DNA of 59,222 bases. Origin: Catajapyx aquilonaris. Its lineage: Eukaryota. The notes under the pieces are model-generated. The model had not been told where the DNA came from, ran no database searches, and worked only from the letters and a program-made list of their open reading frames with translations. Below, one piece after another: positions 1 through 59,222 of this stretch. The stretch covers positions 62,001 through 121,222 of the forward strand of contig KZ538120.1 in NCBI GenBank assembly GCA_000934665.2. Reading direction: 5' to 3'. Position 1 is the stretch's first letter. Each line of letters opens with the position of its first letter. Both the position numbers and the translations under genes were made by a program.

Positions 1-1978
1 CCTCCCCATTTCGCGAACACGTTACTAGCCCATATAACTTAACAAATTGCCATCATTCGAGACAAAGGCCAGAGTTGACTTCCCTTACACAAATGATCGT
101 CGTTAATAATGGATGTTGATTAAGTGCTATAAAAAATTCAGGTTTCTTCTCACCTCTTTCTACAGCTGTTGAAGCTCCATTACTGGCATTAGATGGGCAT
201 CAGACGGATGAAGATGGTGTTATGTCACGAGATGTTGGTCGGATGCAGATGGGCTGATAAAGTTTCCCAATACACATAAAGTTTTGGGGGTAATTGGGTT
301 GGAGGAAGAGATTTCCAACTGATGAGAACTAGGCTAACTCGCTGGGTTTGTGGGGACCTTTAGTAGCTAATGCAAAGCTTATTTCCACATGGATGCCTAG
401 AGTAATTGGGACACTTTAGAGGAAGTTGTTTCATGGCCAACTTTACGCCTGTAGGTTATACCTCACGTTGTACAAGAGTGAGGTTGTGTACAAGTCAGGA
501 TAGAAACATCGGACTGTCCCGTGTCCGAACCGTTACCAAAACTGCAGGAGAATTTGGCCCGTCATCCGAAAACGTGATGCAAGACTTTTGCTTCGTCATG
601 ACCTTTCCGAACGAGACACGGAGGGCTGTTCCCCCCCTCCCCCCTCCCCCCCGATATTGACCGCACGTGTTGTTTCAACCAAGGTTGGCGTATCGCATTA
701 AGTGGGAACGAGTGGATTAATTGGTCATCACGTGGCACAGATTAGCCCTTCCAATCCCATCCATAGCTGGCATTAATGGTCGCGTCCACAGCCCGAAATT
801 TTTTGGGGGTGGTGTTACGTCCCCGAAGCGGTAAACTGGTTCCGATGACATGTAATGCAGGCATGTTGACGATGCAAAATACACCCCAATCCCTCGCTTT
901 TATATAACCCTGATGTCAAGCCTATATAGGATGGGTACGCCAGTAGGGTCTGACTTTGATGCATCGTGTGCATGTGCAACACATATTTTCAGTAGGACCT
1001 GTCCGAATTCACTCCCAGGATCGTTTGTGTGCGCAGAAACATGCGGTCGGGGGGGACCCATTTTTCAGAAGCAGTTTTAGGCCATTTGCAGACGAGTAAA
1101 AGGAACCTGGAATTCAACCAAGAGCACATGAATTCAAATAAATATATTTATTGCATTGCTACCATGTGGAAAATTTTCCAACAGCACTTAAACTGGAGGG
1201 ACAAATAAATTGGGTTACATGTACCAATTGCGCTCACATTCCTGTCTCAACAAGCAAGTCCGGTTTAAGTTTACCACACCCTATCGTACAGTTTTCTAGA
1301 TTTTTCCTGGCCAGTAGAAACTTTACGAAACTTTCTGGTGACACTTTTTTTTGGCTTCGTTTCTCTCTCCTCACTCTTTTATTCAGGGAAGTGTCACATT
1401 CAACACTTGGTGCGGTCGCGCTGAGCATTAGGTCTCGTTGTACCCTGAGGCCTATTTCTGTACCTAGAAAATCGAGGATGGAAACTATGGAAACAAGCAG
1501 CCTCCACACCAAAAAAAAACTACTACTGCTGCTGCCTGTTTTTGGCTCCGCCCAGCCTCACCTTGACAACGTGCCGTCCTCTGGACCAATCAGAAAGCGA
1601 GCCAGGTGATCGATTGTGTGTCCCCAACACCCACCACTTCCGCCCACTCACTAAAATCCTCCGGCAGCAGTGTCGCCACGTTTTTGGCCCCATTTTATCT
1701 CATCCCACCCACCCACCCACTACAGCTATTACCACATGGAAAAAAATAACACCCTCAACACCGCTTTGTTGCTGGTTGTTGGGTTATTTATTAGAGTACA
1801 GAGAGGGTTGGGGGGGGGGGGGGTAGCCCCCAATTTTTTAATTTTGCGCCGGTATGCTATTAGGCTTAATTGGCATAACCCCCTGATGGGGGGGGGGGGG
1901 GGGATGGGGATTGTTACAGCACGTGATGCGGGGCGTGGATGTGAAAAATTGCGGCCATATTGATAATTAGCCGAAGTG

Positions 1979-35600: not shown

Positions 35601-38600
35601 AAGTCATAACAAAAAATCTGATGAAGGTGAAAACCCAGTGTGTATGGAATGCATAGAATATTTTGGTATGGAATTTGCGTCCTTGACCATAATTCATCCA
35701 GCTGCTCTATTCAAAGGCCACCTTTGCCTCGTTAGCACATATGGCGAACTTACATAACCATCGTTGGTTGTCACGCAGATGCAGTCGGGCCACAGTGTGT
35801 ACTATAATTAAGTTATCTTTCCATCTTAATCATAGCAGAAGGACTAGTGGGATCCGCACAGGATTTGATGAGCGATGGTAGGTTATCAGCAGATTAGGCG
35901 CTGAGTAGATGGAAGCATGTCAAGGTTTAACGACAATAATGTTCTTTTGCAAAAGTGTGGTTTCATTTGTTAATGCGCGATCACTAGGGGAAGCCCCAAC
36001 AGGTTCAGATTTAGCTTCATTACGACGGAAATCAATTAGGCGCGATTTGGTGAAGTGAGAGTTGCATTGCGGGGATCATGCGGATTAGTAATAATCAGAG
36101 TGATAAGGATTTATCTACCGGGCTTGTGAGGGGTGGCTATGGAAAAAGTGTGGGAGGAAAGCAAAAGGCAGGGACGGATTTACTTACAAAGGATGTGTCT
36201 TCTTTTTTTATCACTATAGGTTCAAGTCGTACAAGGAAGGCAAGGAGTTTGTGACATTGCTGGCTGATCTGCTGCCAATACCACTATCGGCGCTATCCAA
36301 TGTCAGGTAAGGACTCATTATTTTTATGCACTGCATGACACCCAGTCTGTCACGACATGTGTGCATTACACTGGTAAAATTTTACACATGCAACATGTGC
36401 AAATTGCGAACGAACGAACCAGATTCCCTATAGTCAATGTACTTGAATGACCTATGAGATGTCCGTTTTTCGGTTAAATTTTGGAGTCTAAACTTTATGG
36501 TACGGACGCTGTTGGCGGTTTTATCCTCGCAAAATAGACTGTACTGCGGATACAAAATCCAGGGCAATTGGGACCGCATTTTCCCGGCTCACTAAAGGTT
36601 AGCATGTTGTTATGAACAGAGAATAAGCTGTACATAATGGATGGATGCCTAAATGAGAGGCTGGAGTGCTAATTTGGTCCTCTCTTCAGATTCTCAACAT
36701 GGAAAATTTGATAGATTGTAATAGACATGAGAAATAAGCATGTTACATTTTTCTCATCCGTACATGAGAATTTGTTTTTCGTGTGATGCCAAATTAACTT
36801 TTTGATTAACAAAGAAATGTCCGGTTCCTTTCTGAGCATGCTTGCTATTATTATTATTGCATAAATACATCAATTGTGTGTATACATAGAGGTTTATCCT
36901 AATTGCAGACCTCCGCCTTTTGCTGTATTGGCATAATGGCAATATTTGCAGGGGGCTACTCACTATTAAAAACTTATATTCCCAATTAATAAAAGTTACC
37001 CGTGATTTGTGTGCAGCATATTTCCATAATTTATAATAAGTTATTAATTGGTTCTCTTACGCTCATATCATGCATGGAATTAATTTGCGAAATAACATCA
37101 TTATTAGAAGCTATTTTTTGCAGTCACCGCGTCTCTTTAATGAAGAATCTAAATGACCACTATTAGTGCACCCATCGTTTGGAAATTTTGGGCTAATAAT
37201 TTCAAAGCAATGTCACACAGCAGCCGTATTGCATGAAACAGGTTGTCCATCAAGAGTGGCGTCAGATTAGCAAGCAGCACTGTACTTGCCATCTGCCATG
37301 ACGTGAACGCATACCTGGCAGGGAATGATGTCGACACCTTGATTCAAAGTGCGTCACAGTGCACTGATAACAGATGCAGTTTCATTTTGAAAGTATAAAA
37401 TCACAGTAATGCAATATAATAAATAATATATGAGTTAGAAATATTTTTCTGCAGACATGTGGCGAATATGCAGAGCAGTAAATTATAATCAACACATCCA
37501 TCAATAAGATGTCACATCTCATTATCCTGATCCCGGATGTATTTCGATTCGCAATTCGATTCGAATCTATACGTGTATATCACTTGCATCTAATTAACTG
37601 GTTCGCATCCCCCCCCCCCCCTCCCTTTTCGAAACTTGATAACTGTTGATCCCCGGAGTGATTTCAATAAGGAGTCAGCACCATATTAGAGCCTGGAAAA
37701 TCGGGCAGGAGTCGTCTCGAACATACGTGCAAAATTAGACCCGAGCAATTTCCGGGTTGTTAAACGAAGGCGGGAAAATCCTGCTGCCGCCTCTGGGCAA
37801 GGGGACTCGATTCCGGCGGATAACGAGCAGAAGGACAAGAGTGAAATTGCGATCCGAAGGCAGCAGCTCTTGCTCTAGCAACTTGCTGGCTGCTCTAGCC
37901 CCCATCGTTTGCCCCCAAGCACAATGAATTCCTCTGCCGGAAAATTGGCAGACGCCAAGGGACGGCTTGTAAAGGAAGGCCTGTCGTGTTAATGGGACAA
38001 GAGTTAATTAGCGTCGCCGTTTGTATGGTTTTCTGGGACCCCTAGCATCCTTTGTAATAAGGATCCCTACCCATTGTTCATTTCCAGACTTTTCAAAGCC
38101 TGCGACATATTATTTTTTTTAAATGTCAATTCTGTTCCTTATTTTGGCAGAGTCGAAAAGGATCAAGTGACGTTCAAGGTGGAGCCGAACGCGATGGGAA
38201 TCAACGCGACGGAAGTCACCGGACGCATTGCTACCGGTGAGTTGTACTGTCCTGTCCTGATGGTGTGTGTGCGCTGGGTTTTGGGTCGATACTACACAGG
38301 GCTGTGGCTTGCATTGTTTAGAGGCAGAGGGGAGAGGGGAGGGGGGAAAAAATCAGTGGTATCCAATATTGATGACGTGTTTATAGCACTCTGCCGGGGT
38401 TGGGTTTGCATCATTGTTTACTATCGACTGATCTGAGTCGGAAAAAAACATTGGGAACGCATAGATGGACAAAACTTGACCTAACCCATTGCAATATGAG
38501 GGATTGGTGTGGCTACTGGTGGAGCCAAAGCAACTAAGGCTTGCAGTATTTGCAAAATTTCAAAATGCAGATTTTTGCAGCAACCCCCCATAATTAATCC

Positions 38601-44600: not shown

Positions 44601-47600
44601 TGTGCTAGGTACCCGGTGCAGAGGTCTCGCACATGATTACATCTGGGCGAGAAGCACCAGAGTGTGGGAGGAAAAGGGTTTTCCAATGGCGTTTCCAAGG
44701 CTCGGACCGGTGCTCAGGAGTATCCGAGCGCGAGATAAAGCCTGCTGTAACGTACATGTCGGCTGGAAAGTCACATGGCTGCTCCGGGAGAGTCTGCTGA
44801 GTTGACGGAACAAAAGGTAGGAATAAGTATCCAAGGGGAGGGCTTGCTGCTGCAGTTGGGGGGGACGTAATGAGGCATCCGAGCTTGGCTATTTATTTGG
44901 GCGGTCCACTGATCAATATGGCAGCATCAAAAGAAAGTAGCAAGCGGGCAGGAATCGTCCCTTGTGCTTTCCGATGCAATTTCCGGAGCCCTAGGCTTGT
45001 AACTGGCCCCTCACCAGCATTGCATTCACGCCCCCATTTTTATTGCCTTATTCCAACCCTCAACTGTATTCCAGTCCTAGCCTCACTTTAGGACTTCTTT
45101 CTTGAGGATTTTCTTCTCTCTTTTTTTTGATTCACTTCCCAACAACTTCTTCAGGGTTCCTGATCTGGGACTACGCGGGGATTTACGTTATGGGCTTTGA
45201 CTTATTGGGAGGCGAAAAAGCAAGGCTCATTAGGGCTTAATTGTGGGGTAAATATTTATGCGGATTGCTCTTTTTTTACAGATGAATTCAAGAGCACTGT
45301 GAAAAGAGAGATGGGAGTGGAGATCATCAATGAGGGCATTGGAGATAGGGTGAGTACCACATTTTTATGCGCATGTACCTTCGAACATTACACACATATT
45401 TTGTACATGATACATTTTGTGCGAAACTACGTCTGCGCAATGACCCGGCGTATCAAAAGTTGGAAGGTAGAGTTACCTGAGAGTGCATGAAAGAAGAGAA
45501 AATAAAAGCAACCTTTTTGACCATGTGTCGATTTCCTGGAATCTCTTCGGTGTATAAGATACCATCCGACCTGCTTGCTGGCTTGACAGGGTTTCAGGGT
45601 AACCAAGAGACAACTTCCTACCTTGTGTTTTGATTCTTTGAGGTCGAAAACAAGTCTGGTTGCTAAGCAAAGTTCTTTGTCTGCCTGTATCTCTTGAGTA
45701 GAAAATAATCCTCTCGGTTTGCTCATGGATCGCGAGCACCGAAGAGGACTTTCAAAAGAGCTGCTATAATTCCTCTGGAGAGGGCCCTCTTGCTGCTTTT
45801 CATGTTGCGCAGCTGGATGGGGTTATTTTTTTTTCGGTGGCCGCTCATTTCGCAGAAATGTTACATATATAGGCCAAAATGCAGCACAATTTTTTCCTGG
45901 TGTTGTTCAGCTCATCCCAATTTTCTAGCCACTGGAAGCAGAACAACAAGCTCCGGTCCATTGTTCCCCCCAGCAGCAGGAATAGGTTTTGGCACAAATG
46001 CCACATATATATCGGAAAGCAGTTCTCCGCTCGCTGTAATAACCATACCAGCCGCATTGTTTGCGACTTGAAGTGCGAAATTATTATGATTTCTGCCCCT
46101 CTTCGCACTTTCCAGAAACTCTTCATGGGTTGGGTAATTAAAACAATTGACCGCATCCGGCAGTACTTGAAGGGGGCATTGACAATGAAAGATCCCTCCC
46201 AACTGCCGCAGGAGTCAATTGGGTGTCCAGAGTAGTAAATAAATCCAAATCGCGGCGCCAAGCCCTAGTGTTTGCTCGAGACAAGCCGAGCAAATAGATT
46301 CGGAGCCGAGATTTCTAATTAGAGTTGGTCGCGTGCCTGCGCCCGTTGCCCGGATCCCTATTCCTTTGATCTTAATTGAAGACAATTTTGATTTTGGCGT
46401 CGGAATTTCCCGAGCTCGATTTTTTTTATTGTTGTTGTTTGTCGCGAGGAAGTGACGTCCTTGGCTGGAAGTTGCTGGGTGTCAGCTCATCAAACGGCTA
46501 ACTATACTTATTGCTCGTTAGACCATATAGTTTTTTTTTCTCTCGGTATATATTTTCGGTGTGTATAGCCTGGTGTGTATGCCCGGAACAGCATTGCCTC
46601 GGGAGCTACATTATTATATACGCATACGACAGAGGAGGGTTGGTACCAAAAAAAAATGTATAGTTCTGTGGGTTTGAAAAAGCAAATGAGGAAACAAGTC
46701 GGATGAGGTTTACATGCGCGTAATGCGAATGGCAAGTGGGGGCCTCCAGAGACAGCTTAGCAACCGAGGAAAACATTTCACAAAAGCAGGCGGAAATGAC
46801 GAGCACTGCCTCCAGCACCTATTATTAACTCCCACTCCACATTATGCCAATATAGCGCCGGTGGGCTTTTTTAACTGGGAAGAGAGATGGGGGGTGGAGG
46901 GGGAGAGAAATAATTAGGGGAGGGAGAAGGAGGGAGAGGGGGGTAGAAAATGCAAGCGAATTTTTGTTTGGGTTTCCGGGAGAAAAGTTGGATTTGTTCG
47001 CATTTTTCCAGAGAGAGAGAGAGGGGGGGGACATGTTGAGCGTAATTTCTCTTGGTGGAACTGTATTGGGTCTGGCGTTATAATTGGTTTTTTAAGCAAT
47101 TGTTCGTACTACTTGTTTCCGCGTGTCTATCGGGGTCACATTGATGCATGTTTAGGAGTGATAAAATTGATTTGAGAGACTGGCGGAGAAGTAACACTTT
47201 TGTTTACCTTTACAAAAAATTGTTACGCAATCGTTTCTCGGGATATTTTGCAACCTGCTTGCGTATAACATTTGTGGGCAGAAAGAAATTGAAACTGACG
47301 TTGTTTTAAGCACTGTACTATATAAGAATCGGGTTTCTTAGAAGCGACTTGATTACACGGAGCAGAAATGAAACCTCACAATTATCTACCATTATTTTTC
47401 AGACTTGAGACGAAATTACTCTTGACATATTACGGTATTTTGTTCAGTTCGCTGACAGCGAACACTCTGCACATCAGTATCAAATCAAGTCTGCTAAAAT
47501 ATTGCGTCAGAGAGAGTTCGTATAGAGTACAAGTTTTACTGGGAGGTTGAATAAGAAAGGAGTAATCCTTACTATATTGCACCGAGGCAGTTTCATAGAG

Positions 47601-49408
47601 CAGGTGACGATCGAGAATTAATATGTACAAGTGCAGTTGCCTTGTCCTACATTCTGTCTGGGTGTCGGCTTCCAAGAATTACCTCGACTCAGCTGATGAG
47701 TTTCCTGAAAGAATAGATCTGCAGTAATGTAGCTAATTGACGTTGGTCTGCAAATTAAATTTAGGAATATATTATAATGCTAAGTAGTAAGCAAAACATT
47801 ATTATTATTCTCATTTTTAAACGACATAGCTGTTTGATTCTTTGGAGTAAAATGTGAGCATATACAGTTATCACAGTTCACATTTACATATGTAATAATT
47901 TATATATAATCAAAGATCAATTTAATTCGCAAAGGGGACTGCTTAGTCAGCTGGATTGATGTGTACATTTTCATATCAAAACTGGACATTTGGATTAGCT
48001 TGTTTTATAATTCATGCTGATCCCCATTGGAAATTACAAAACTGGAGTGTTGGTCACATATGTGCACAATTAGGACCTGATAGTTCAAATTTCATGTAAA
48101 GCGTCACAGGAATGTTTCGATTTTCAAACGCGCTTTCGTGTGCATGCTTATCACGACAAAAACTGACATCAAAAATAATGAGTTGTGAATATTGCTCACA
48201 CCTGTTTATGGGTGCTTGCGGTATATTAGCTCTTGAATGCGCGTTAACCAGTCATTTGTGCTAATTCTGGCCGTGCGAATATGGTTACAGAAATGATTTA
48301 AAATTGAGTTTGCAGATTTGAAGCATAATGTCCGGTTACTGGATCATGTTGGACACATTATACGGGGTGGAGCACCACACTGCCCAAGCACTTTGTTGTT
48401 GAATATTGTTTACTCTACCAACTATAGTTCAAAAGACGTTATCTGCACGACTTTATTGCTGTTTCCTTCGGGTTGCTCTCCTTTAAACTGGTTACTGGGG
48501 TAAACAATCCCGAAGTTCATCACCTACCTCCACTTTAACTTTGGGCAGTGCACCACCATGAATTAATGCAATAATATTGAATGATGCATGATGCATGGTT
48601 TATGCCTGAAACTGTTTGCCTGAAATTGCCTATAGCTTGAAACGTATATTCAGTACACTGTAAAGTTACAGGGTGATCCATTTGAGATGTGATCTACACG
48701 CTCGGCTGCAAAGGTGTGGACAAAATTTGCTTAACAAAACTGCCATGCTGAAAGTATAGTCTCGGGCAGAAAAATCATTTTAAATATTGTATACGTCGTA
48801 GATATAAGTACTGCATGAAACGAAAAGCTGAGCGGCAGGGGACTTTTTTTTCTTCGGACGATAAGACCCGGGCTATGTTTTAATCGAGAATTAGTTATAT
48901 GCAAAAAGACAACCCGAGGGGGATGAAGGAAATATCAAGATATCAATAAATCTGTGCAGCATATTGCGGAATCTTCCTTGAAGGCAGCTTATATACAAAA
49001 ATGGGAACCAACTGAAAGCCGAATCGACTGGGCAAAGAACTTGGATGATTTCTTCTTTTTTTTACAGTGACATGGACATTTTTCATTGCGAGTTTTACTA
49101 TATTGTCAATGGCAAAATAATGGCTCATAAATTTATGCAGGGAATGCTTCGTACGAACTGGAGCGCAAAACCTTTCAATATTCATATCTAAGTCATGTGC
49201 ATTGCAGCAGCAGACATACCTTTTACGGAATTCCTTGTGGAGATAACTGCAGTATTTTTGAAAAATAAAATATCGGCCCAATATGTACGAGTTTCGCGTT
49301 CACAATACTGGATTTTAAAAACTTTATTACTGCATAAATCGAGAAACTAAGAGGAAATAACTGCCTCTCTCTGCTACTTCCAACCGACAGTATATACATT
49401 TCGGAAAG
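2926..49408 (+). CDS. IA-2: Spliced IA-2/PTPRN-family receptor-type tyrosine-protein phosphatase-like gene, 5' part (signal peptide, RESP18-homology region, pro-region, ectodomain); 3'-incomplete
   Basis: Join 2926-3022, 8646-8699, 11731-11791, 12011-12142, 13078-13162, 13655-13790, 15719-15924, 16329-16757, 17889-18018, 30546-30649, 32085-32242, 36220-36306, 38151-38236, 45282-45349, (49391-49408). All introns are GT-AG with consistent phases and the frame stays open. GCLFSETLCETEYEWCYDDYAFGRC matches the IA-2 N-terminal GCLFxxxLC...C..D..FGxC pattern, and GYRWSHIYTQCVLQ matches GxxWxxxxTQxV. VDTSYAYV...EGKEFVTLLADLL...VTFKV...INATEV...MGVEIINEGIGDR matches the IA-2 ectodomain. Family recognised from memory, not by database search. 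Confidence 0.92.
4819..4854 (+). mobile_element. Possible SINE central-domain fragment
   Basis: GTGGGTTTTCTTGGGGTTTCTGCCGTTTCTTCCCAC resembles the GTGGGTTTYCTCCGGGTRCTCCGGTTTCCTCCCAC core of widespread metazoan SINEs. No head recognised. Confidence 0.35.
8646..8699 (+). CDS. IA-2: IA-2 exon 2, (G)CLFSETLCETEYEWCYD
   Basis: Acceptor tgtctgtctttccag, donor G|GTAAGT, 54 nt, phase 1-1, Cys pattern of the RESP18-homology region. Confidence 0.93.
11731..11791 (+). CDS. IA-2: IA-2 exon 3, (D)YAFGRCLPLDGSIGDDDLY(R)
   Basis: Acceptor ttccttcctttcag, donor CG|GTGAGT, 61 nt, phase 1-2, FGxC motif. Confidence 0.93.
12011..12142 (+). CDS. IA-2: IA-2 exon 4, FDLDRSSLHALENEMQRLFALGYRWSHIYTQCVLQALLVSFRY(D)
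   Basis: Acceptor ttttttccctag, donor GA|GTGAGT, 132 nt, phase 2-2. Confidence 0.93.
13078..13162 (+). CDS. IA-2: IA-2 exon 5, MSYDEELCNQLVDQDLEGALRAIEGDDQ
   Basis: Acceptor tctgttccttgcag, donor CAG|GTACTG, 85 nt, phase 2-0. Confidence 0.88.
13655..13790 (+). CDS. IA-2: IA-2 exon 6, KVDPLDLAVVRFTPSANEPHSEFADEVYFPTVQDQQDSADDIEKN(G)
   Basis: Acceptor attttcatatacag, donor G|GTAAGT, 136 nt, phase 0-1. Confidence 0.88.
15719..15924 (+). CDS. IA-2: IA-2 exon 7, PGEINYYPSSYDDDDGEDMAFGRNKKIDRS...VKWRKRSNDFPSDADE
   Basis: Acceptor ttccttttttcag, donor GAG|GTACGG, 206 nt, phase 1-0. A possible alternative in-frame donor follows 15876. Confidence 0.82.
16329..16757 (+). CDS. IA-2: IA-2 exon 8, acidic/poly-Gln pro-region EMLSPEE...YTEGGLIILP...WGFKRRERLDVKKPGPFFQ
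   Basis: Acceptor ccatcccccacag, donor CAG|GTGAGA, 429 nt, phase 0-0. Corresponds to ORF 16332-16766 and has strongly coding-like composition. Confidence 0.92.
17889..18018 (+). CDS. IA-2: IA-2 exon 9, TSDNDGSGLKSYLRTLTEEDNEISNAHGPSDEYEPIAEDMTHD(E)
   Basis: Branch-like ctctaat then ccag acceptor, donor G|GTAAGT, 130 nt, phase 0-1. Confidence 0.85.
26612..26671 (+). repeat. (AATA)15 microsatellite
   Basis: Directly visible. Confidence 0.97.
29058..29109. mobile_element. Very short inverted-repeat element, probably an internally deleted Tc1/mariner-type MITE
   Basis: Perfect 14-bp inverted repeat GGTGTTCCAAGTTC (29058-29071) / GAACTTGGAACACC (29096-29109) with a 24-bp spacer. Ends resemble CAGGGTGT...ACACCCTG termini. 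Confidence 0.55.
30546..30649 (+). CDS. IA-2: IA-2 exon 10, GEMDNDASSGGESFGKKNKTEWDETSLPSSSWVQ
   Basis: Branch-like gctaac, acceptor gttacag, donor CAG|GTAATT, 104 nt, phase 1-0, bridges the phases of exons 9 and 11. Confidence 0.82.
32085..32242 (+). CDS. IA-2: IA-2 exon 11, WRKRYRQKKVVP...HRFEVVDTSYAYVGVKK(P); basic cleavage cluster and start of ectodomain
   Basis: Acceptor tgtttttttggcag, donor CC|GTAAGT, 158 nt, phase 0-2. Confidence 0.9.
36220..36306 (+). CDS. IA-2: IA-2 exon 12, FKSYKEGKEFVTLLADLLPIPLSALSNV(R), ectodomain
   Basis: Acceptor ttttttatcactatag, donor AG|GTAAGG, 87 nt, phase 2-2. Confidence 0.9.
38151..38236 (+). CDS. IA-2: IA-2 exon 13, VEKDQVTFKVEPNAMGINATEVTGRIAT(D), ectodomain with N-A-T glycosylation sequon
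   Basis: Acceptor cttattttggcag, donor G|GTGAGT, 86 nt, phase 2-1. Confidence 0.92.
45282..45349 (+). CDS. IA-2: IA-2 exon 14, EFKSTVKREMGVEIINEGIGDR, end of ectodomain
   Basis: Acceptor ctctttttttacag, donor AGG|GTGAGT, 68 nt, phase 1-0. GxxIxxxGxGxR end motif of the IA-2 ectodomain. Confidence 0.92.
49391..49408 (+). CDS. IA-2: Candidate 18-nt in-frame microexon (YIHFGK) of IA-2
   Basis: ctgcctctctctgctacttccaaccgacag|TATATACATTTCGGAAAG|gtgagt. Near-consensus donor, pyrimidine-rich acceptor, phase 0-0 matching the exon 14 exit, no stop. Confidence 0.68.
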
Positions 49409-51616
49409 GTGAGTTCTCTCTCTCTCTCTCTACTTTTTTTTTCTTCCCCCTGGCCAAAGTTTGAGCTAATGTTATACGAGCCCCCTGAGGAAACCAGTCA
49501 AAACGCTAAAATTGTTGAGAACCCATACACAAGATTTGGAAAGATGAAAAGTTTGGTTCTGTGAGGCTCCACCAGTGGAAAAGTAAACGTGCTCCCTAAC
49601 TACTAAGGATGTCCGAGTTCCTTTGGAGAAAGGGTTGGGTTTGGGTATATAGAGAGTGGGTGGTGTAACCATAGAAACCTGTTGCCTGGGTTCAGGAAAG
49701 GCTTCATTGCCAATCATGATACCGATACTGTGGCGCAGGAAGAGGAAAATATATGGAGAAGTTGGGAAAATATATATTTGCGGTGAAAAGGGCGAAGTTT
49801 GCAGGAAAATGTCATATTTTTCGTGTGTAATGATTGTACCAGATGCTATTCAATTTTTTGGCGGCGATTAATAAACACGAATAAAATCCTTTCATGCCTT
49901 GGCAGATCATCCATCTTCGGCTGTGCGACGGGTAATTAGGATCGCTCAAGTCTCGAGGGTACGTTAAATGTCAGGTGTAACTATTCGGATAAGTGTTGTT
50001 CCATCTGAAATTGGCGACCAAAATGACAAAATCAAGCAAATACGTGCGTGCTTGTGAAACTTTGTGATTCATTCCCAGTTTTTTTCCAATTATTTTGCAG
50101 CCTAGAGCAGTACAATGATCTTACCCAGAAAATTGAACAAGTCGTTATTTATTTCGTAACCAGAAATGAGGTTTGGAAGATTGGTTGCGGCTGATGAATA
50201 ATGTCTCGCAATATACGCTTTTGCTGCCTGGTTGCATTTTTGCCTACGCAGAATTAACCATGACTTCAGCACAACAATGCGAAATTGGCAGTCTAGAGTT
50301 TTAGGCCCCAATATTTTCAACAATTCTCCTCAAAACCGAAAGCGACTAATTTTGTTTCGGCTGTTGAACCGCCCTTGAAGACAATGGGGGTTTGTTTTGA
50401 TACGTCTTACTGGCTATTGTTCCAGAGTTTGGGGAGCGCATTTCAAGAATAACCCGCAGGGGGCCATGCCAGAGAGATACATTATAATAAAATGGCAAAC
50501 TCCTTCAAGGAGCTTGGAAGGGACTGGATATGGCATGTTGAAAGTGCGCCGTTAGCAAAGAAAATGTTTGCCTCTCTCTTCGTAGCTCCCCCCTCCCCCT
50601 TCCTATATAGTATATACCCTCATCAACTAGTAGACCGAGTCTAGTATCCAAATCCTGCGTTCGCCAACTCCATACCATTTCTTAGGACCCCCGGATGAAA
50701 TATATATGAGCCCACTCAACCATGTACTGTATTGAATTTCCCGGAGGAATCCGAGAGTCTTGTTCGCTTCTCGAAGACTGCTGGGCCTCCAGAGTTGGCA
50801 GGAGACTCTTCTGAAGAGTACAGGACCCACCGTTTTTCCACCCGAAGAAACCTTTCAAATCACGTGGAAATAGTCCACAAGTCAACTTTATTGCCGATTC
50901 AATTTTGTTGTCGATGGGTAATTGAAGGGGTTCTTGGGAAAACGAGTCTTACATGTCCGCGAAATGATTTGGCGAAGTTAATGGTCAACAGTTGCTGCTG
51001 TGGGGAATATTGCAAGTTATGTGGGTTAGAAGTGTTTCTCTCTCTAGTAATAAACGTGTTGTGACAAATAGCATGAGTAGTTTGTGGAAAAGTATTTCCA
51101 AAAATGCAGTCGTGTATGTGCAATGCATCGGGAATTATTTTTAGAAGTAAATATTGCTTACAGTAGTAGACAGTGAATAATTACGGGTTTCTTGTGAAAT
51201 TTTCCCTTTAGCAATACTAGACAAAATGTTTGTAGCACACGGTAGCACATCCTGGATGTGCATGCATAATTATGAATTTTTATCGGATTTGATCTGCTAT
51301 AATAAGCTTATTAGTACATCAGGCTTTCTGTATATTTAAAAAAAAGCATTTTGAACTAAAACGCTTTTTAGAGCTGATGAATAATGTGTATATGGTACTA
51401 GTATGCCCTTTTGTGTGGCTATATATATTTTTACAATATTTTTGCAATTATGTACTCATGGCACTATTTACCTTATTCTGTTACATACACACGGTATGCT
51501 CTTATGCTAATGTAGACTACCAGTTGTGATCAGTTTTAGAGAGGACCAAATATATAGTTTAAGTAATGAATGATATTCCCACACCCATTTGCATTTTATT
51601 AGACAGCAGATTGGTG

Positions 51617-51643
51617 AATATTGCAATATTGCAATATTGCAAT
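51617..51643. repeat. (AATATTGC)3 self-complementary tandem repeat
   Basis: AATATTGCAATATTGCAATATTGCAAT directly visible. Confidence 0.85.
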
Positions 51644-53572
51644 TAAAATATGTCAGTATGAGTCACAATAAACAGAAGCAAACAGAATCATCTCATCGCT
51701 ATTGAACGGCTGTCCATTAATTTACACGACGTTGCATTATTGAGCATATTCGGATAATTATATTATTGGGGAAATCAGCTGGTTATGGGACATTCTTCTT
51801 ACGACAACAGCAATCTAATAGTACCTCAGGCGCTAATCCTGCTGACTGGCCAATTTCCACCGAATTTTAGTCCTGGCACGCATACAAGCCACAGGTACCC
51901 AAATAATATAATCCTGGACCCACCAGCAAGCAAAGCAAGGAACGAAGAGGTTCAGCTGGGCGGTGGCAAAAGTCCCGGGAGGAAGAGCGATAGATGTGTT
52001 TACAATGACGGTCGACATGACCGCTTGGTGTCCCCTGGGTTAAAGTGCTGCTGGTTTCATTCTGTCTGTCCCGGTGCCTTTGACAAAAAAGCACCTTCGC
52101 AGTCGGTCATCAGCCCTTGGTCTGGAAAACCAGGGGCTGGGATGGGTGGGTGGGGGTACTTCAATTACCACCCTCTTCCCACCCTACCAAATCTGTGTGT
52201 TTATTTATGTGTGTGTGTACCTACGTACAGTACAGTATATATGTGAGGCCTAGCGGTCGCAATTCGCGCACACCCCTCGCTTGCTAATACGCTAGAAATT
52301 CACAGAGGGAATTTTTTACCCTAACTTAATTTGTGTGCCATCAGTAATATTTATTGCTGCATCATGAATCTGTAGGCTCTGGTCGACCTGCATCTACCCG
52401 CATTGTTGACATGGTAGGTTTTGGCCTGCAAATGCGTTCCGTGATGTGAAATGTGGAATTAGTGATAACGGGACAGGGTTAATTTGCATGGCCTCCCAGG
52501 GCTGCTCTCGATTTGCGGTATCGCAACAAAATGCCCCCCCCTCACTTCTAAATAGTTTTTGTGCTGAATATTTCAGATCCACTAAATGGTGGTGTAATTT
52601 GTCTGGCGATTTATCTCTCCCGGATTCCGTTTCAAGTCTCTCTTTTTGTCGGCGGCCCGCCTCACCAACACTTCAATTAGGAGGTCAATAAGAGCCAGTC
52701 CAAGACCCTTTTAAAAACCTAATTTGGGTCATGTTGGCCATGGGTTTTACTGATTCCACGGGTAGAGCATTAGCCCAGATTTTACATGCCTATTTTGTAT
52801 ATTTAAAACGGAATGTGTTATTTGATGAGAATAATTAGAGCCTATAGCATAAACCACACCAAAATGAACCAAAATGTAAAAAAAATGGCAATGAATGTAT
52901 GTGACCGTTTGTTATAAATGCACCGTACAATATATCTGGAGAAGCTTCTAGAGCAGGCAGAGTCTGCAAATTAAGAGTCGACATGCTCTGGCGGGTGCTC
53001 TGGTGTCACATCAACAGGGGAAGGTGTTGTGCCCTCGCCCTACTACTTCACTTCAGTTGAAAGGACAAACTGCATTCATGAAATATGTGTTTTGTCATTC
53101 CATTTCTGTGAGACTCGCTTTTCAGGAGTTGGATGTAGCAAAAAAATGTGTTGCAACGTGCCTGCAAGGAATTTGATGTGATTATTTAAGAGCCTGCAGT
53201 TTGTGACGAATTAGGTATATAGGTTCCGCCTACTAATCTTTTTTTGAATAACTTGAGGCTGTAAGATGACAAAGAGAAGAAATGCAAGAGGAATGTTTAA
53301 AATCCGCTCATATAAAATGTATTTTGCGCGGAAATGTATATAATCTTCCATAATGCGGACATCTAAAAAGAGATTGAAAGAGATTGATCATTAAGGAATA
53401 TATATTTCTGCATTTTTTATTATGTAAGGAGCGTTTTCAGCACCGTTTTAATTATATAATAATTCATACCCCGTTATCAGCCATCAGCTCTTTAGGGGGT
53501 AAGTTTTTTTTTGTTTTTCCTGGAACTCTTTGCTTTTTCATTTTACTGTGCTCGGTGGGATAGGATAGGGGC

Positions 53573-53739
53573 GGAAAGAAGCGGCTGTGGCCTATTTACT
53601 GAAGCAACTCCGGGATTTTCCTGGAAGGACCGTGGGAAACCACAGAAAACCACGGTCAGAGTTACCGGCCCCGGGATTTGATCCCAGGACCTCCCGATTA
53701 ACAGTCGGACACCATATCCCCTCCCCCAAACTGCTTCGG
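53573..53739 (-). mobile_element. Degenerate tRNA-derived SINE
   Basis: + strand GGAAAGAAGCGGCTGTGGCCTATTT...CCTGGAAGGACCGTGGGAAACCACAGAAAAC...GGGATTTGATCCCAGGACCTCCCGATT...CTTCGG resembles the reverse complement of a SINE body I recall from arthropods. A degenerate B-box (GGATCAAATCC) lies on the minus strand. Confidence 0.7.
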
Positions 53740-56700
53740 TTAGTTTTAATTAAATGTGACCCTTAGAGCAAAGATGATAATGGAAATGTGCAAGGGTCTA
53801 GCGGAGATAGGCAAAGTTTCTGTGATCCGCATGCGCATTAAACTTTAATTTTTCACATTCTCTATGCATTTTTAGTCGCTGTTTTTTGTTTACTTAGTAT
53901 TCCGAGCCCTGCTTCATTACGCTTGTATGCAGGGTGTTAAATATTTGGAGTGCACAGGTTTTTACCATGCATGCACCGGGGAATATTTAGATATTTCATC
54001 ACACCACAAAGGTAGCCTATGTGTTCAATCAAACTATTTCTGAGTGCATATTACTGTTACAGTACCAGTTAATAAATCATCGCATGCTCCAGCATTATTG
54101 GAATACTTTTTGCTGTATCGTAACAGAAACTGCAGATTCTATATAAAAAACCCTGCCAAAAAACCATTCCAATAAAACAGGACCAAAGTTGGCCTGATGA
54201 TCAAATCTAAAATCTGGACGTACACATCTGGCTGGGGGCAGCACACACTGCAACCTCCCATTTTGGAAAGGTGACGGAAAAGTAGTGACGCGAGAGCCTC
54301 CGGAGGGCCGGGCAATGCCATCAACAGGTTTTCCCCGAGTCTGCTGACAACTTGACGACCGCAGTGGGCCAACTGACCATCGGTTTTAAAGCCCCAGCAC
54401 GCCCCACAGAACACGCTTTGCACCCCTCGTCTCACTATATAGGACCTAGCACAGCTATACAGTTAACCCTACATGAAAGTCTTTGCTTTTATTATTAATG
54501 AGCAACCTGCATGTACACAAGATGATTCGTAACGAAATTTTGCGGATTCCCCCTCGCACAATAAGCTTTGAAGGATGTGGAAATGAATGCACGGTGTTAT
54601 ACAGGGAAGCCAAATTTTGAAGCTAAACCTCAAACCACTCCTAAGACGCACCTTTCCATCCTAGAAGGCCGGCCTTGCAAAAGCCCATTTTGTCGGGCCC
54701 CGCCATCCGCTGGGAAATCCGCATAATAATTAGGAGCTTCTAAACAATTAGCAGTACATGGTGCCATTAGCGTCTCGCCACCAGACCACCCCACCTTTCT
54801 ATATACGTTTGCCGGCTTACAAACAGAATATCCAAACAAACGACACATTTTTGTCTGGCCTCCCCGCCTGCTTTACCACGCACAATTTTTGTTGTTGTTT
54901 GCTCTGCTGTATATGCGCCATCATGATGAAATCTTAACATTTAATTTAATCTGGACAGTGAGGTGGTCCATGGCCCGGAGTCCGCATGTGTTTCCGGAGA
55001 AGCGCAAAATAATGGGTGCTTAAGAAAACGAGCTGGCAAGGGAACATGACATGCACCCAAGGGCCTTTAGCATTTCGAGTAGACTGCAAATGGGAGGCAA
55101 GGCTTTTCTATAGTAGTGTAGTACTAGGCAGAGCAATAACAAGAAACAGCCTCGGGAGGGGCAGGCAAAAGCAGCAAGCAGACAAGGGAAAAGGGCCGCT
55201 TGCTCGACTTCGCACCAGAACTAGCCCAAGCCAGCCTTCAAGGCAAAACAGCCTCCCTGCTTCAAAAGCCTTAGGCCTACTTCACGGATAATAAATTCTG
55301 AAATAATATTTGGCCTCCTTTGCTCAACCCTCCGGAATTTACGTACGGAAAAGTATTTTTTTAAGAGGGTGAATTTCTCCGGTTGCATCTTCTGCCAACA
55401 CAGCAAAAGCCTCTTAAATGGAACTAGACTCCAGGTGACTTCCCTGGGAAGCGGGCATTAATTAATGATGAGATGCAGCCGAGGGTATTGATGAGGCGAT
55501 CGGGTTGACTACTGAATGATTGATGCGACATGTCATTCCTGCTGGAAATGGACGTAGTAGGAACTCCAGATTCCAGCAGCTGGAAAATTCCTTGAAGTAA
55601 ATTTGAAAAAAAAGCTTGCCAAAATTGAGGGTCATTGGCGGCACTATTTGCAACAACCTCTTCCTAACTGGAAGGAAATTTCAATCTCCGGCTCAATCCA
55701 CGTCGCTCGAGAAATCAGCTCTACAAAATACGGCGCCTCCGGATAGGATGAGGCCGGATGTGGCCAATTTTTCTTGCCATTTTTTTTGCGTTCATTTAAT
55801 ATGCATTATGCTGGCTTGCAGTCATACTTTTTTTTACACTCTAGGCTCGTAAGGAAATTAAATGCCATTACCAAAATTGCTTAGCTAGTTTATTGCAGTG
55901 TGACTCTAACACTGCGGATTTTAGTTTGCTCAAATAGAATCCATTGTTGCCATATTAGAGGCGCCATGTGAATTTAATTATCCGTTGCTTTTGAAGACAA
56001 AAGATCACGCAAAAAATGAAAGGGCAAATTGCCATCCATTATTCCAGTGTGGTGACGTGCTCCGTAATATTCTTATCGGTGCATTCGGGTGGGACAACCG
56101 CAGAAACCTGCAACTGTCAACCTCCACTCGTCATTTCATTGCCAATTATATGTGCCATCATGCGAAAGGGATTTAATTAGAAAACAGGACGGTAACCGAA
56201 TTGCCACTAATAGGCCTATACGGCTGTGCATTAAAACACGCGCTCATTTATTTGAACAGATGCACAATTGCATCCTGGAATATGTAGTTGTGGAGCGTGT
56301 GCCTGGACCACACTCGTAATGGCCGAGTTTGAGAATAAATAATGACAAATAATTTGTTTGCATGCTGTCCTGATGTCACGTTGATGTTATGCCGTTTGTT
56401 CCAGCATTGTATGTGCATGTTGCATCTGCTGAAAAGGGCAGGAAAAGTTACCCGATTGCGATGTTGGAGGCTATAATTGACTTGGTGTTGACTGTACGTG
56501 TGTGTGCAGATATTCCCTAAACTAATGGGATTTAATTTTTAATGGCACTGATGCGCAGTAAACATGCTAATTTAATATCTTCTACAGCCGGTTCGGAAAA
56601 AGGAAATTACGGCCAATAACAACAAACAAGGGAAAAATGAAAAGTGGTGAAAAATTCACGACATTTTCTCCTCGCCGCCCCGTAAATCGCGTTTACACCT

Positions 56701-57856
56701 ATTTTCCTCCCTCTAACAACATTTTGCAGTATCCTTCGCAATTCAGTTGCCAAATCATTTTTCTCATACTCGCAAACACAGCAAAAAACTACTAATTGAG
56801 CACTAATGATGGCTTGGAACAATGGTTTAAAATTTAGGCCCGGTTTCTTGCCCCCCCCCCCCTCCATTGTCTCACCCCTTCCCCCTACTCATGGCCGGAT
56901 TGAGAAAACTGATGGCGCGGCATGCAAATATTATTACGGGGGCTATTGTGGGGCGGATATACGTTGGCCACTACATCCTTTTGTAGCAGCAGTAAATTGA
57001 ATCGGATCGATGTATACTTCATACAAACCCTCTCCCTTCCCCAAGAAGATACTGCCAGAGACTGAGAGAGACTGCAGTGATTTCGTTGCCTAATTCCGAC
57101 GGTGGAGGGATGGGCCTAATCGGCAAAATCTGCTTTGACGTTTTCACTCCGGACCAGCAGGTGCAGTCTTTCATCTCTGGGATGCCTGCCTGGCACTATG
57201 AAGCCCTAGATATGCCTTTGCCCAACATTCCGACCAAGGGGTGTGAACCTGAATTTTCCGTGTCTGAATTTCCTGTAGGTATATGCACCTTTTATTAGGT
57301 TTGGGCGTATAGTCACTTAAGCAACTTGCTAAACACCGGTGTGTAAAAAAATTCATGTAAAATGTTAACCATATGACCCCATACGACCTGTAACCAAAAG
57401 TCACCCTTTTTTTTTGTATAATATATGCCTCCAGCTAATTCCGTTGGACCAACTAGGCTTCTTGATCAGTGATGAGGTTATTCACATGGAACTTGCCCCT
57501 GATTTTTTTTTTTTTCAAGGCAAAAAAGTCAGCAATTTCAGAGTCAAGATTGGATAGGTTCATTTGGAAGCAAAAGTGGTATTTACATTTTGGGTTTAAT
57601 TTGAGACCACTTATTGGTCATCCCGGAGAGGGGCTTGACACAATATGGCGCAATTAGCCCCGGATTTTGGGTGGCTGCAGATTGGACTCTATTTTTTGCT
57701 GTTGTTGAACCCAGAGGATGGTGGAGTAATTTAGTAGGTTCCTGAAATGGGGGTGTAAAGTGCAGAGCGTTTTCTCGCGTTTGGGATCCCAAAAAGCGAG
57801 CTTTTCCAAAAGCCGAAGAAAAGGCTCCGTCTCTTTCTCTTCGCACCCCCCCCCCC

Positions 57857-57898
57857 NNNNNNNNNNNNNNNNNNNNNNNNNNNNNNNNNNNNNNNNNN
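57857..57898. other. Assembly gap (42 N) between a poly-C and a poly-G run
   Basis: Directly visible. Single Ns also occur in or beside G/C runs at 7236, 10687, 14383 and 26345. Confidence 0.99.
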
Positions 57899-58962
57899 GG
57901 GGGGGGGGGGGAGCAGGGAAAAAAAAACTGAAGGCAAAGACACTGAATAAACACCAGGTCGAAATTTTTGCAATCCAAACTTTTCTGAACAGTAATTTTA
58001 CATTTGATGTGACCATGTAAACATTGCTGGACCGGACCTACTTGAAGCTAGGAGGTTTTTCTACACCGCATAATTTTCCACCACGTTAGCATTCAACACA
58101 TGACGCGAATGACCTTCCAATGAATGCTCATTGAATCTGAATTTTAAAAACAGTTGGGAAGCCTAAATAAATCTACCGCCCCCCTCCCCTCTCTCTCCCC
58201 TACCCCTACCCAGGAAATAATAAAAAAAGCGAGCTTTGAAACCCAACGGCTGAGTGAATGGGTTGCAGGTGCCCAATTACGCATTCATACGGTTTCATTG
58301 AAACTTTGCACTGTTTTTTTGGGGGGGCCAAAAAAGGGAAAACAACCGCTGGTTGAATAAGTGGGCAAAACGGGAATTGCGATAACAATCGCTCGTATTT
58401 ATCCTCCCTCCGCGGTAATAAACAACAACACTGTTTTGTGGATGGAAACTGATGTGCCATCTTTTTATTAACAATTTTAAAAATCTGACCTATCGGATTG
58501 CCTGTTATGAAGCTCGAGAGTGGTAAAAGGATAGCAGTCTGTTATTTTGTACTGATCTCTGAGGAATGTCCTATCCAGAGAAAAAACTGTTGAATTCCGG
58601 GCTAAGCTGAAGATGATGGGGTTTTCTCCCTGTCAACTCGGTAAGAGCTAGAGTTATGCTTTGGAGCAAAACTGGCGAATGGTGTGTGAAGAAGGTGCAA
58701 AAAGGTTGGGTTTTCTATCGACATTAAAATGCCATCACATTTCTAATATTGGACGGGATTAAACCAATGCAATTTACGTGTCTACACACATAACATTAGG
58801 AAATTAGGATTCCCCCTCAAACCCTAGCGGATAGCAAATGGGAAAATTAATAAATAAATACATAAATAAATTACCAAACATTAGGAAATTAGGAAAGCAT
58901 TTCATACCGGGAGACCGAATGTGACAGAGGTAGGGGCACGCTGTACCAATCTACCCCCATGA

Positions 58963-59032
58963 CCTATCTTTCAGCGGATACACGCCTATTATTCAGCGGA
59001 TCCACGCCTATCCTTCAGCATATATAAGCCTA
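58963..59032 (+). repeat. 22-bp minisatellite, about 3.2 copies (CCTATYHTTCAGCGGATMCACG)
   Basis: Units start at 58963, 58985, 59007 and 59029 (partial); the third unit is more diverged. Confidence 0.85.
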
Positions 59033-59081
59033 GGAATGTAGGTAAACGTACGGGGTCTCCTGATATGAAAGCATAACCGGA

Positions 59082-59084
<3 letters not shown>

Positions 59085-59141
<57 letters not shown>
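59085..59141 (+). repeat. (TAT)19 microsatellite
   Basis: Directly visible. Confidence 0.97.
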
Positions 59142-59222
59142 GCGGTGGTGAAGCTGAACGTGATCTTTTAGATGGGATGCTACAAGAGTCGAGATGTGGG
59201 GGATGAGGAGGGGTGGGGGAGG

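What the first reader, a model, noticed from the sequence alone, without database searches (positions are those of the whole stretch)
49345..49440. 18-nt microexon with the cis-signature of neural Srrm234/eMIC regulation in the juxtamembrane stalk of IA-2
Seen: a branch-like aactaa (49345-49350), then an AG-free pyrimidine tract containing two TGC motifs (cTGCctctctcTGCtacttcc) within 30 nt of the acceptor. The exon TATATACATTTCGGAAAG (YIHFGK) is followed by a near-perfect donor AAG|GTGAGT and a (CT)n/T tract. Its phase fits exon 14. Established: neural microexons (3-27 nt, frame-preserving) are activated by SRRM3/4 or invertebrate Srrm234 eMIC proteins through UGC motifs near the 3' splice site and are enriched in vesicle-traffic genes. 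Inference: a cell-type-specific 6-residue insert between the ectodomain and the membrane. If the next exon begins with K or R it would also create an F-G-K-[KR] cleavage/amidation site. Standard annotation would probably miss it.
Basis: partly seen in the sequence, partly recalled or inferred. Interest (0 to 1): 0.75.

Follow-up and report, generated by a model that had tools for sequence, protein, structure and literature searches.

The report
Unproven 18-base candidate exon in IA-2
A tiny 18-base stretch with textbook splice signals lies deep in a long intron of an arthropod IA-2 (secretory-granule phosphatase) gene, but with no RNA data or close relatives to check, it may be a real nerve-cell mini-exon or only a look-alike.

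Summary
The sequence is exactly as described. An AG-free 35-nt zone holds UGC-CUCUCUC-UGC, then cag|TATATACATTTCGGAAAG|GTGAGT at 49391-49408, then (TC)8.5 and T9.

The host gene is an IA-2/PTPRN orthologue of a pancrustacean. The upstream exon (45282-45349) ends in phase 0 with ...GIGDR. That is the last strand of the SEA-like ectodomain, just before the stalk and membrane span in 142 orthologue sequences. The cis pattern matches the published SRRM3/4-eMIC microexon code.

It is the only 9/9 donor on either strand of the window. About 0.02-0.03 such configurations are expected per window strand under composition-preserving shuffles.

Inclusion could not be tested. No same-species or close-relative protein exists in the databases. 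None of the 142 orthologue sequences carries a YIHFGK-like insert. Two insects have different 5-6-residue alternative inserts at this junction.

The amidation idea is disfavoured: the next exon starts with K in 1 of 142 and never with R.

My odds are about 55% silent pseudoexon and about 35% real cassette microexon. If real, it is a new member of a known kind.

The parts
45282..45349 (+). It encodes (D)EFKSTVKREMGVEIINEGIGDR and ends in phase 0 at AGG|gtgagt.
   Evidence: Sequence. tblastn to the krill IA-2 protein P0006. It aligns with the G-x-G-D-K motif that precedes the stalk in 142 orthologue sequences.
49345..49350 (+). Branch-like AACTAA. It reads CUAAG, a 4/5 match to CUAAY, about 40 nt before the acceptor.
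   Evidence: The consensus comes from PMC8797185. The match is imperfect.
49358..49361 (+). Alternative branch candidate UAAC, 30 nt before the acceptor G.
   Evidence: This is inference from the general yUnAy consensus, which I recalled.
49354..49388 (+). AG-free zone of 35 nt holding UGC (49362-64), CUCUCUC and UGC (49372-74). The pyrimidine tract ends 9 nt before the AG.
   Evidence: zone length 35, two TGC. The layout matches the UCUCUC..UGC enhancer described.
49389..49390 (+). Candidate 3' splice site AG (cAG).
49391..49408 (+). Candidate 18-nt cassette microexon. It reads YIHFGK in phase 0 with no stop. Its use is unproven.
   Evidence: No RNA evidence could be obtained.
49409..49414 (+). 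Candidate 5' splice site GTGAGT. With the exon's last three bases (AAG|GTGAGT) it is a 9/9 consensus match, the only one in the window on either strand.
49415..49442 (+). (TC)8.5 microsatellite, then AC and T9, starting directly after the donor hexamer.
   Evidence: TRF. It is the only period-2 array in 45350-59222. Sequence.

Best explanation
Most likely this is a pseudoexon. A very good donor and a fair acceptor happen to lie 18 nt apart inside a CT-rich low-complexity patch, 4,041 nt into an intron of at least 13.9 kb of an IA-2/PTPRN orthologue. On this reading the spliceosome normally joins the ..GIGDR exon straight to the stalk and membrane-span exon, which lies beyond the window. The 18 nt are then skipped, or used only at trace level. 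What is shown: the sequence, the gene identity and the position and phase of the intron. That the segment is silent is inferred from base rates and from the lack of any matching insert in relatives.
For: 1. None of 142 orthologue sequences that cover this junction has a YIHFGK-like insert. These include multi-isoform RefSeq sets and transcript-derived Logan and ENA proteins of ants and bees. An old, conserved microexon is therefore not supported.
2. The acceptor is weaker than the real acceptors of this gene. Those whose acceptor displays (7 of 10) carry their pyrimidine tract up to the AG, whereas here the last 9 nt are aaccgacag.
3. The pyrimidine tract before the segment and the (TC)n after it could be one degenerate CT-rich patch. 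That would make a 'polypyrimidine tract' cheap to obtain.
4. The antisense strand, where no exon is expected, holds two configurations only slightly weaker (8/9 donor, 59% pyrimidines).
5. Chance still gives 0.015-0.034 such sites per window strand. By my estimate this is similar to the prior that a 59-kb piece of a neuronal gene holds an unannotated, lineage-specific microexon.
Against: - It is the single best microexon-like configuration of 2,543 in the window, and the only 9/9 donor on either strand.
- Of 113 in-frame open AG..GT candidates of 12-21 nt in the visible part of this intron, the next best donor is 7/9.
- The upstream layout reproduces the published enhancer architecture: CU-rich tract displaced from the AG, UGC between tract and AG, long AG-free zone.
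- Requiring one TGC as well lowers the Markov expectation to 0.003 per strand. The site has two.
- CU-rich runs on both sides of an 18-nt exon recall PTB-repressed neural exons. That parallel is recalled, not tested.
- Two insects show alternative 5-6-residue inserts at exactly this junction, so the protein tolerates an insert here.
Confidence: 0.55

Rival explanations
1. A real, alternatively spliced 18-nt cassette microexon. In neurons, or a subset of neuroendocrine cells, an Srrm234/eMIC-type activator bound at the UGC motifs helps U2AF and U2 use the weak, displaced 3' splice site. The perfect donor recruits U1. The CU repeats on both sides may bind a PTB-like repressor elsewhere. Inclusion inserts YIHFGK between the last strand of the SEA-like ectodomain (..GIGDR) and the luminal stalk, lengthening the tether by six residues. 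All steps after the sequence itself are inferred.
For: - The cis pattern matches the published code.
- The segment is 18 nt, in phase 0 and open.
- It carries the only 9/9 donor in the window.
- Chance expectation is 0.015-0.034 per strand and 0.003 when a TGC is also required.
- The upstream exon has a strong 8/9 donor, as reported for fly eMIC exons.
- The intron position is conserved in phase 0. In Diabrotica, P0034 carries 27 extra in-frame residues there that P0027 lacks. They start with V and end with K, as a retained 81-nt intron would (inference).
- Alternative 6- and 5-residue inserts exist at this same junction in Onthophagus taurus and Dinoponera quadriceps.
- The host gene is a neuroendocrine dense-core-vesicle protein.
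Against: - There is no RNA evidence of any kind.
- No similar insert occurs in 142 orthologue sequences.
- The beetle and ant inserts (FVLLKK, VVLQK) are made of residues whose codons are T-rich and end in K. That is what reading through a pyrimidine tract to a nearby alternative acceptor would give, so they are probably not homologous to this cassette.
- Fly eMIC exons are reported to have weak donors, unlike this one.
- IA-2 was not found in the one held supplement of the fly eMIC paper. Its four terms gave 0 occurrences, and the gene names I searched for were recalled.
Confidence: 0.35
2. The splice signals are real, but the product is not a protein-coding insert. Examples: a rarely used cryptic exon that serves stepwise removal of the very long intron, or an exon of another, non-coding transcript.
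For: The intron is at least 13.9 kb. Long arthropod introns are often removed in steps (recalled). The donor is perfect.
Against: - A classical ratchet point needs AG|GT juxtaposed. Here AG is followed by TA.
- After joining to exon 14, the only GT formed would shift the frame by one base.
- No Rfam family, no repeat copy and no Pfam domain on either strand marks another gene here.
Confidence: 0.07

Closest known systems
SRRM3/SRRM4 (invertebrate Srrm234 eMIC)-dependent neural microexons, as described in PMC8797185 and bioRxiv 10.1101/2024.09.17.613571 (passages read)
   Same: The segment is 3-27 nt and frame-preserving. UGC lies close to the 3' splice site. A CU-rich pyrimidine tract is displaced from the AG. 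The AG-free zone is long. The donor is strong (vertebrate pattern) and the upstream exon's donor is strong (fly pattern). The host gene works in regulated secretion.
   Different: Inclusion, tissue specificity, dependence on the factor and conservation are all untested or unmet here. Fly eMIC exons are reported to have weak donors. The branch motif is CUAAG, not CUAAY.
c-src N1 exon, an 18-nt neuron-specific exon repressed by PTB through CU-rich elements on both sides (recalled, no call)
   Same: Same length (18 nt, six residues). CU repeats lie in the upstream tract, and a CU/U-rich run lies just after the donor.
   Different: Nothing is known here about binding or regulation. It is a different gene and phylum. 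The downstream (TC)n may simply be a microsatellite.
Mini-exons meA/meB of the LAR-type receptor phosphatases PTPRD/PTPRS/PTPRF (recalled, no call)
   Same: Very short alternative inserts in the extracellular part of a receptor-type phosphatase in neurons.
   Different: Those lie in Ig domains and tune ligand binding, and they are conserved and proven. This one would lie in the stalk after a SEA-like domain and is unproven.
Alternative inserts at the same junction in insect IA-2: Onthophagus taurus X1 versus X2 (FVLLKK) and Dinoponera quadriceps X1/X2 versus X3/X4 (VVLQK)
   Same: Same intron position (after G-x-G-D-K, phase 0). Same size class (6 and 5 residues). All end in K.
   Different: The sequences are unlike YIHFGK. 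They probably arise from nearby alternative acceptors rather than from a cassette 4 kb into the intron (inference). They were seen in 2 of the isoform sets compared, with a one-residue Q variant in a third (Neocloeon).
Human PTPRN splice variant lacking exon 13, the transmembrane region (PMC11802530, passage read)
   Same: Alternative splicing of the IA-2 gene around the membrane-proximal region.
   Different: That variant skips a whole exon and removes the membrane span. It is not a microexon insertion.

Membership tests
eMIC (SRRM3/4, Srrm234)-dependent neural microexon | Length 3-27 nt, multiple of three, open in the gene's frame | tested here: met
   The segment is 18 nt. The upstream exon ends in phase 0. 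It translates to YIHFGK with no stop.
eMIC (SRRM3/4, Srrm234)-dependent neural microexon | Actually spliced into mRNA (junction reads on both sides) | not testable with these tools
   The read-laying step was not available. The nearest protein to the 143-residue exon is 57% identical, so the species itself appears absent from the protein collections.
eMIC (SRRM3/4, Srrm234)-dependent neural microexon | Inclusion restricted to neurons or endocrine cells and lost without the eMIC factor | not testable with these tools
   This needs tissue RNA-seq and a knockdown.
eMIC (SRRM3/4, Srrm234)-dependent neural microexon | UGC near the 3' splice site, CU-rich tract displaced from the AG, long AG-free zone | tested here: met
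   Two UGC lie 29-27 and 19-17 nt before the exon start. CUCUCUC lies between them. The AG-free zone is 35 nt.
eMIC (SRRM3/4, Srrm234)-dependent neural microexon | Strong branch point (CUAAY in flies) | tested here: inconclusive
   CUAAG lies 40 nt upstream and UAAC 30 nt upstream. Neither is a full CUAAY.
eMIC (SRRM3/4, Srrm234)-dependent neural microexon | Conservation of the insert in orthologues | tested here: not met
   0 of 142 orthologue sequences have a YIHFGK-like insert. Two species have unlike inserts. No close relative (>65% identity) was available, so a young lineage-specific exon is not excluded.
IA-2 / PTPRN family (host gene) | RESP18-like N-terminal cysteine motif and SEA-like 'Receptor_IA-2' ectodomain | tested here: met
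   tblastn finds GCLFSETLCETEYEWCYD, DYAFGRC and LGYRWSH..YTQCVLQALL exons, 50-65% identical to arthropod IA-2. The Pfam PF11548 match is weak: E 0.0021, 18.5 bits, below the 29.7-bit cut-off because it covers a single 28-residue exon.
IA-2 / PTPRN family (host gene) | Single membrane span followed by a PTP-like domain | not testable with these tools
   These parts are not in the window. No Y_phosphatase match occurred in 392 plus-strand ORFs. No tblastn hit better than E 0.2 lies after 45350. The orthologues used do have them.
Recursive splice site (ratchet point) | 3' and 5' splice sites juxtaposed (AG|GT) | tested here: not met
   The AG at 49389-90 is followed by TA.
Amidated peptide precursor site (x-G-K/R-K/R) | Gly followed by a dibasic pair | tested here: not met
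   The next exon is not in the window. In orthologues its first residue is K in 1 of 142 and R in 0 of 142. The FARP Pfam match to the read-through ORF (E 0.013) uses intronic residues and an 11-position model.

The most novel reading that the evidence does not exclude
The 18 nt are a genuine, lineage-specific neuronal or neuroendocrine microexon of a pancrustacean IA-2 gene. On this reading it is switched on through the UGC/CU-rich enhancer by the Srrm234 eMIC activity. It is held off elsewhere by PTB-like binding to the CU repeats on both sides. The junction between the SEA-like ectodomain and the stalk would then be a recurrent hot spot where arthropods independently evolved 5-6-residue alternative inserts, as in a dung beetle and a ponerine ant. 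Such inserts could tune the tether length or shedding of this dense-core-vesicle protein.
Probability: 0.3. Interest if true: 0.45.

Novelty: new member of a known kind. Interest (0 to 1): 0.28.

Why it matters
If real, this would add IA-2, a marker of dense-core secretory vesicles and a diabetes autoantigen in people, to the genes whose protein is re-tailored by neural microexons. It would also point to the ectodomain-stalk junction as a place where small inserts arise repeatedly.

That would be a useful but modest addition to a well-described phenomenon. If it is a look-alike, it is a reminder that sequence signals alone, even a perfect donor with the full upstream motif set, do not establish a microexon.

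Tried and rejected
**RNA evidence**
- The look-up of sequencing runs with the 429-nt acidic exon (sent as 16330-16758, one base off the true 16329-16757) listed no RNA holder. It listed one run of unknown kind, X1, with 32 million letters.
- No statement on expression follows from any of this.

**Sequence and protein look-ups**
- No whole genome is held for this window.
- The search for homologous proteins with the 28-residue SEA exon against longer proteins found no candidate.
- Exact scan of metagenome contigs for the last 30 nt of exon 14 gave 0 matches.
- Exact scan for the 18-nt segment gave 27 loci. 0 of 27 carry the exon-14 end or the intron flanks, so all are unrelated chance matches.
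- One listing of cluster members query of 10 proteins could not be made. A 5-protein subset was answered.

**Earlier notes and papers**
- Earlier notes of this scan held nothing on this genome or gene.
- Five papers hold both 'microexon' and 'PTPRN'; none has either term in its title or abstract (listing only).
- IA-2, ia2, CG31795 and FBgn0031294 gave 0 occurrences in the one held supplement of PMC8797185. Those gene names were recalled, and other supplements may not be held.

**Alternative readings considered and rejected**
- Transposon or repeat origin: no copy of 49200-49650 elsewhere in the window beyond 13-27-nt simple-sequence hits, and no repeats in 45350-59222.
- Nested gene: no Pfam family at gathering level on either strand near the site.
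- Structured RNA: 0 Rfam matches in the window.
- Recursive splice site: AG is not followed by GT.
- FMRFamide-like peptide: the FARP match (E 0.013) relies on intronic residues.
- Membrane-span exon inside the window: only two hydrophobic 19-residue stretches after 45350, neither convincing, and no tblastn support.
Full report
**Observation**

- AACTAA lies at 49345-49350.
- After the last AG at 49352-49353 comes a 35-nt AG-free zone (49354-49388). It reads gaaataaCTGCCTCTCTCTGCTACTTCCaaccgac, with TGC at 49362-64 and 49372-74.
- The acceptor cAG ends at 49390.
- The 18-nt segment TATATACATTTCGGAAAG lies at 49391-49408.
- The donor hexamer GTGAGT follows. With the last three exon bases this gives AAG|GTGAGT, a 9/9 match to MAG|GTRAGT.
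- A (TC)8.5 array lies at 49415-49431, followed by T9.

The upstream exon ends ...GGAGATAGG|gtgagt at 45349. It ends on a complete codon, so the 18 nt read YIHFGK without a stop.

**The host gene**

- A stop-to-stop ORF at 38008-38433 gave a weak Receptor_IA-2 Pfam match (E 0.0021, 18.5 bits against a 29.7-bit cut-off). The match is weak because it rests on one 28-residue exon.
- A clear 429-nt acidic exon lies at 16329-16757. A full HMMER search with it found 13 proteins at E<=0.001.
- These include Agrilus planipennis 'receptor-type tyrosine-protein phosphatase-like N' (P0013) and a partial krill protein (P0006).
- tblastn of these and later orthologues maps 11 coding exons on the plus strand (boundaries read). 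Six have approximate starts near 8646, 11730, 12009, 13079, 13649 and 15800. The other five are 16329-16757, 32085-32242, about 36218-36307, 38151-38236 and 45282-45349.
- Identity to insect and crustacean IA-2 is 46-65%. The organism is therefore a pancrustacean with no close relative in the protein collections.
- The cockroach orthologue's best solved-structure matches are the PTPRN2 and PTPRN phosphatase domains.
- Nothing after 45350 matches the stalk, membrane span or phosphatase domain. The best plus-strand E-value there is 0.2. No Y_phosphatase match occurred in 392 ORFs, and no convincing hydrophobic span was found.
- The rest of the gene therefore lies beyond the window. The intron after 45349 is at least 13.9 kb. 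The candidate sits 4,041 nt into it.

**Where the insert would fall**

In 142 of the 197 proteins held, both the G-x-G-[DNES]-x motif and the juxtamembrane YQDLCR motif are present.
- The window's ..EGIGDR aligns with that motif. The stalk of about 20 residues and the membrane span follow.
- The intron position is old. Diabrotica model P0034 carries a 27-residue in-frame insert there that begins with V and ends with K. A retained 81-nt GT..AG intron would give exactly that (inference).

**Is it more than chance?**

*In favour*
- Of 2,543 AG-(3..27 nt, in frame, open)-GT configurations on both strands, this is the only one with a 9/9 donor.
- It is also the only one with a donor >=8/9 and >=60% pyrimidines upstream.
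- It holds the only 9/9 donor in the window on either strand. The real exons reach at most 8/9.
- Within the visible part of this intron, the next best donor among 113 candidates of 12-21 nt is 7/9.
- Shuffles that keep local composition (30-, 60- and 120-nt blocks, 1,500 shuffles for each) expect 1.1 perfect donors per strand. They expect 0.46-0.48 with an in-frame open AG, and 0.015-0.034 that also have >=65% pyrimidines upstream.
- A 3rd-order Markov model gives 0.01-0.04, and 0.003 if a TGC is also required (300 simulations).

*Against over-reading this*
- The thresholds were chosen after seeing the site.
- The antisense strand has two near-equivalents (8/9 donor, 59% pyrimidines).
- The acceptor is weaker than the real acceptors of this gene, whose pyrimidine tracts run up to the AG.
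- The flanking CT-rich runs may be one degenerate microsatellite.

**Comparison with the published code**

- Passages of PMC8797185 describe fly eMIC exons. They have long AG-free zones, UGC close to the 3' splice site, long UCUC-rich tracts, strong CUAAY branch points, weak own donors and strong upstream donors.
- Passages of bioRxiv 10.1101/2024.09.17.613571 describe SRRM3/4 microexons. They have strong donors, tract and branch point displaced from the AG, and a bipartite UCUCUC..UGC enhancer.
- The site meets the AG-free zone, UGC, CU-rich displaced tract and strong upstream donor features.
- The branch motif is only CUAAG or UAAC.
- Its perfect donor fits the vertebrate pattern, not the fly one.

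**Relatives**

No orthologue sequence has a YIHFGK-like insert (0 of 142).

Comparing isoform sets of 11 species, three differ exactly at this junction:
- Onthophagus taurus X1 has FVLLKK, which X2 lacks.
- Dinoponera quadriceps X1/X2 have VVLQK, which X3/X4 lack.
- Neocloeon triangulifer X1 has one extra Q.

The further isoform sets and transcript-derived proteins show no difference there. They come from Odontomachus, Formica, Polyergus, Cataglyphis, Camponotus, Osmia and Megachile.

The beetle and ant inserts are built from residues with T-rich codons and end in K. That is what translation of a pyrimidine tract up to a nearby alternative acceptor would look like. I infer they are not homologous to a cassette 4 kb into the intron. 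They do show that the protein tolerates five or six extra residues at this spot.

**The amidation idea**

The residue that follows the junction in orthologues is A (54), T (43), I (14), V (13) or another residue. It is K in 1 of 142 and never R. The second residue is K in 119 and R in 9. Inclusion would therefore give ..FGK-[AT]-K.., not G-K-[KR]. The FARP Pfam match to the read-through ORF (E 0.013) uses intronic residues and an 11-position model. I treat it as chance.

**Surroundings**

- No repeat copies of the region occur elsewhere.
- No Rfam family was matched in the window.
- No Pfam family at gathering level was found on either strand between 40 kb and the window end.
- A recursive splice site is excluded because the AG is followed by TA.

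**What could not be done**

- The decisive test, junction reads, was not possible.
- The species and its near relatives are absent from the protein collections. The best identity to the long exon is 57%, and there was no word match for the SEA exon.
- Exact scans of metagenome contigs found nothing relevant.
- Supplements of papers other than the one file searched were not seen. They could list IA-2 microexons in other species.

**Verdict**

I weighed a chance expectation of about 0.005-0.03 per window against two priors. One is my rough prior of a few percent that this stretch holds a real but unannotated microexon. The other is the roughly one-in-five chance that such an exon would look this good.

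There is also no conserved counterpart in relatives. On that basis I put about 55% on a silent or trace-level pseudoexon. I put about 35% on a real cassette microexon, most of that with eMIC/PTB-type regulation, and the rest on other uses of the signals.

If real, it is a new member of a well-known kind, of modest interest.

Noticed in passing
orthologue proteins P0155/P0023, P0121/P0093/P0119/P0120, P0122/P0066 (not in the window): Isoforms of IA-2 in a dung beetle, a ponerine ant and a mayfly differ by 6, 5 and 1 residues exactly at the ectodomain-stalk junction. This junction looks like a recurrent site of small alternative inserts in insects.
   Followed up: partly
orthologue proteins of Dinoponera, Frieseomelitta, Andrena, Periplaneta (not in the window): A second tiny alternative insert recurs inside the phosphatase domain at ..YINASTI|TDHDP.. 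It is KS in an ant and a stingless bee, VSK versus T in Andrena and Q in the cockroach. It looks like a conserved 3-9-nt alternative splice choice.
   Followed up: no
window 1142-1606 (+): A weak CRIM1_C Pfam match (E 0.0024, below cut-off) suggests that the 3' end of a CRIM1-like gene lies upstream of the IA-2 gene on the same strand.
   Followed up: no
window 50105-50329 (-): A weak Ubiq_cyt_C_chap Pfam match on the antisense strand inside the long intron (E 0.0012, 19.4 bits against a 21.5-bit cut-off). It could be a fragment of a nested or decayed gene, or chance.
   Followed up: no
window 36197-36307 (+): An exon for the first half of the SEA-like domain (..FKSYKEGKEFVTLLADLLPIPLSALSNVR) was found only with a mayfly protein (E 0.001). 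It fills the gap between the exons at 32085-32242 and 38151-38236.
   Followed up: partly
window 57857-57898; also 7236, 10687, 14383, 26345: A 42-base run of N (assembly gap) and four single N positions.
   Followed up: no
window 59085-59141: A perfect (TAT)19 microsatellite near the window end.
   Followed up: no
window 32085-32110 (+): The exon before the mature ectodomain begins W-RKRYRQKK, a cluster of basic pairs. It lies where vertebrate IA-2 is cleaved by convertases (the cleavage site is recalled).
   Followed up: no
orthologue protein P0034 (Diabrotica balteata): A 27-residue in-frame insert after G-V-G-N-K starts with V and ends with K. It looks like a retained 81-nt intron in the deposited gene model.
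   Followed up: no
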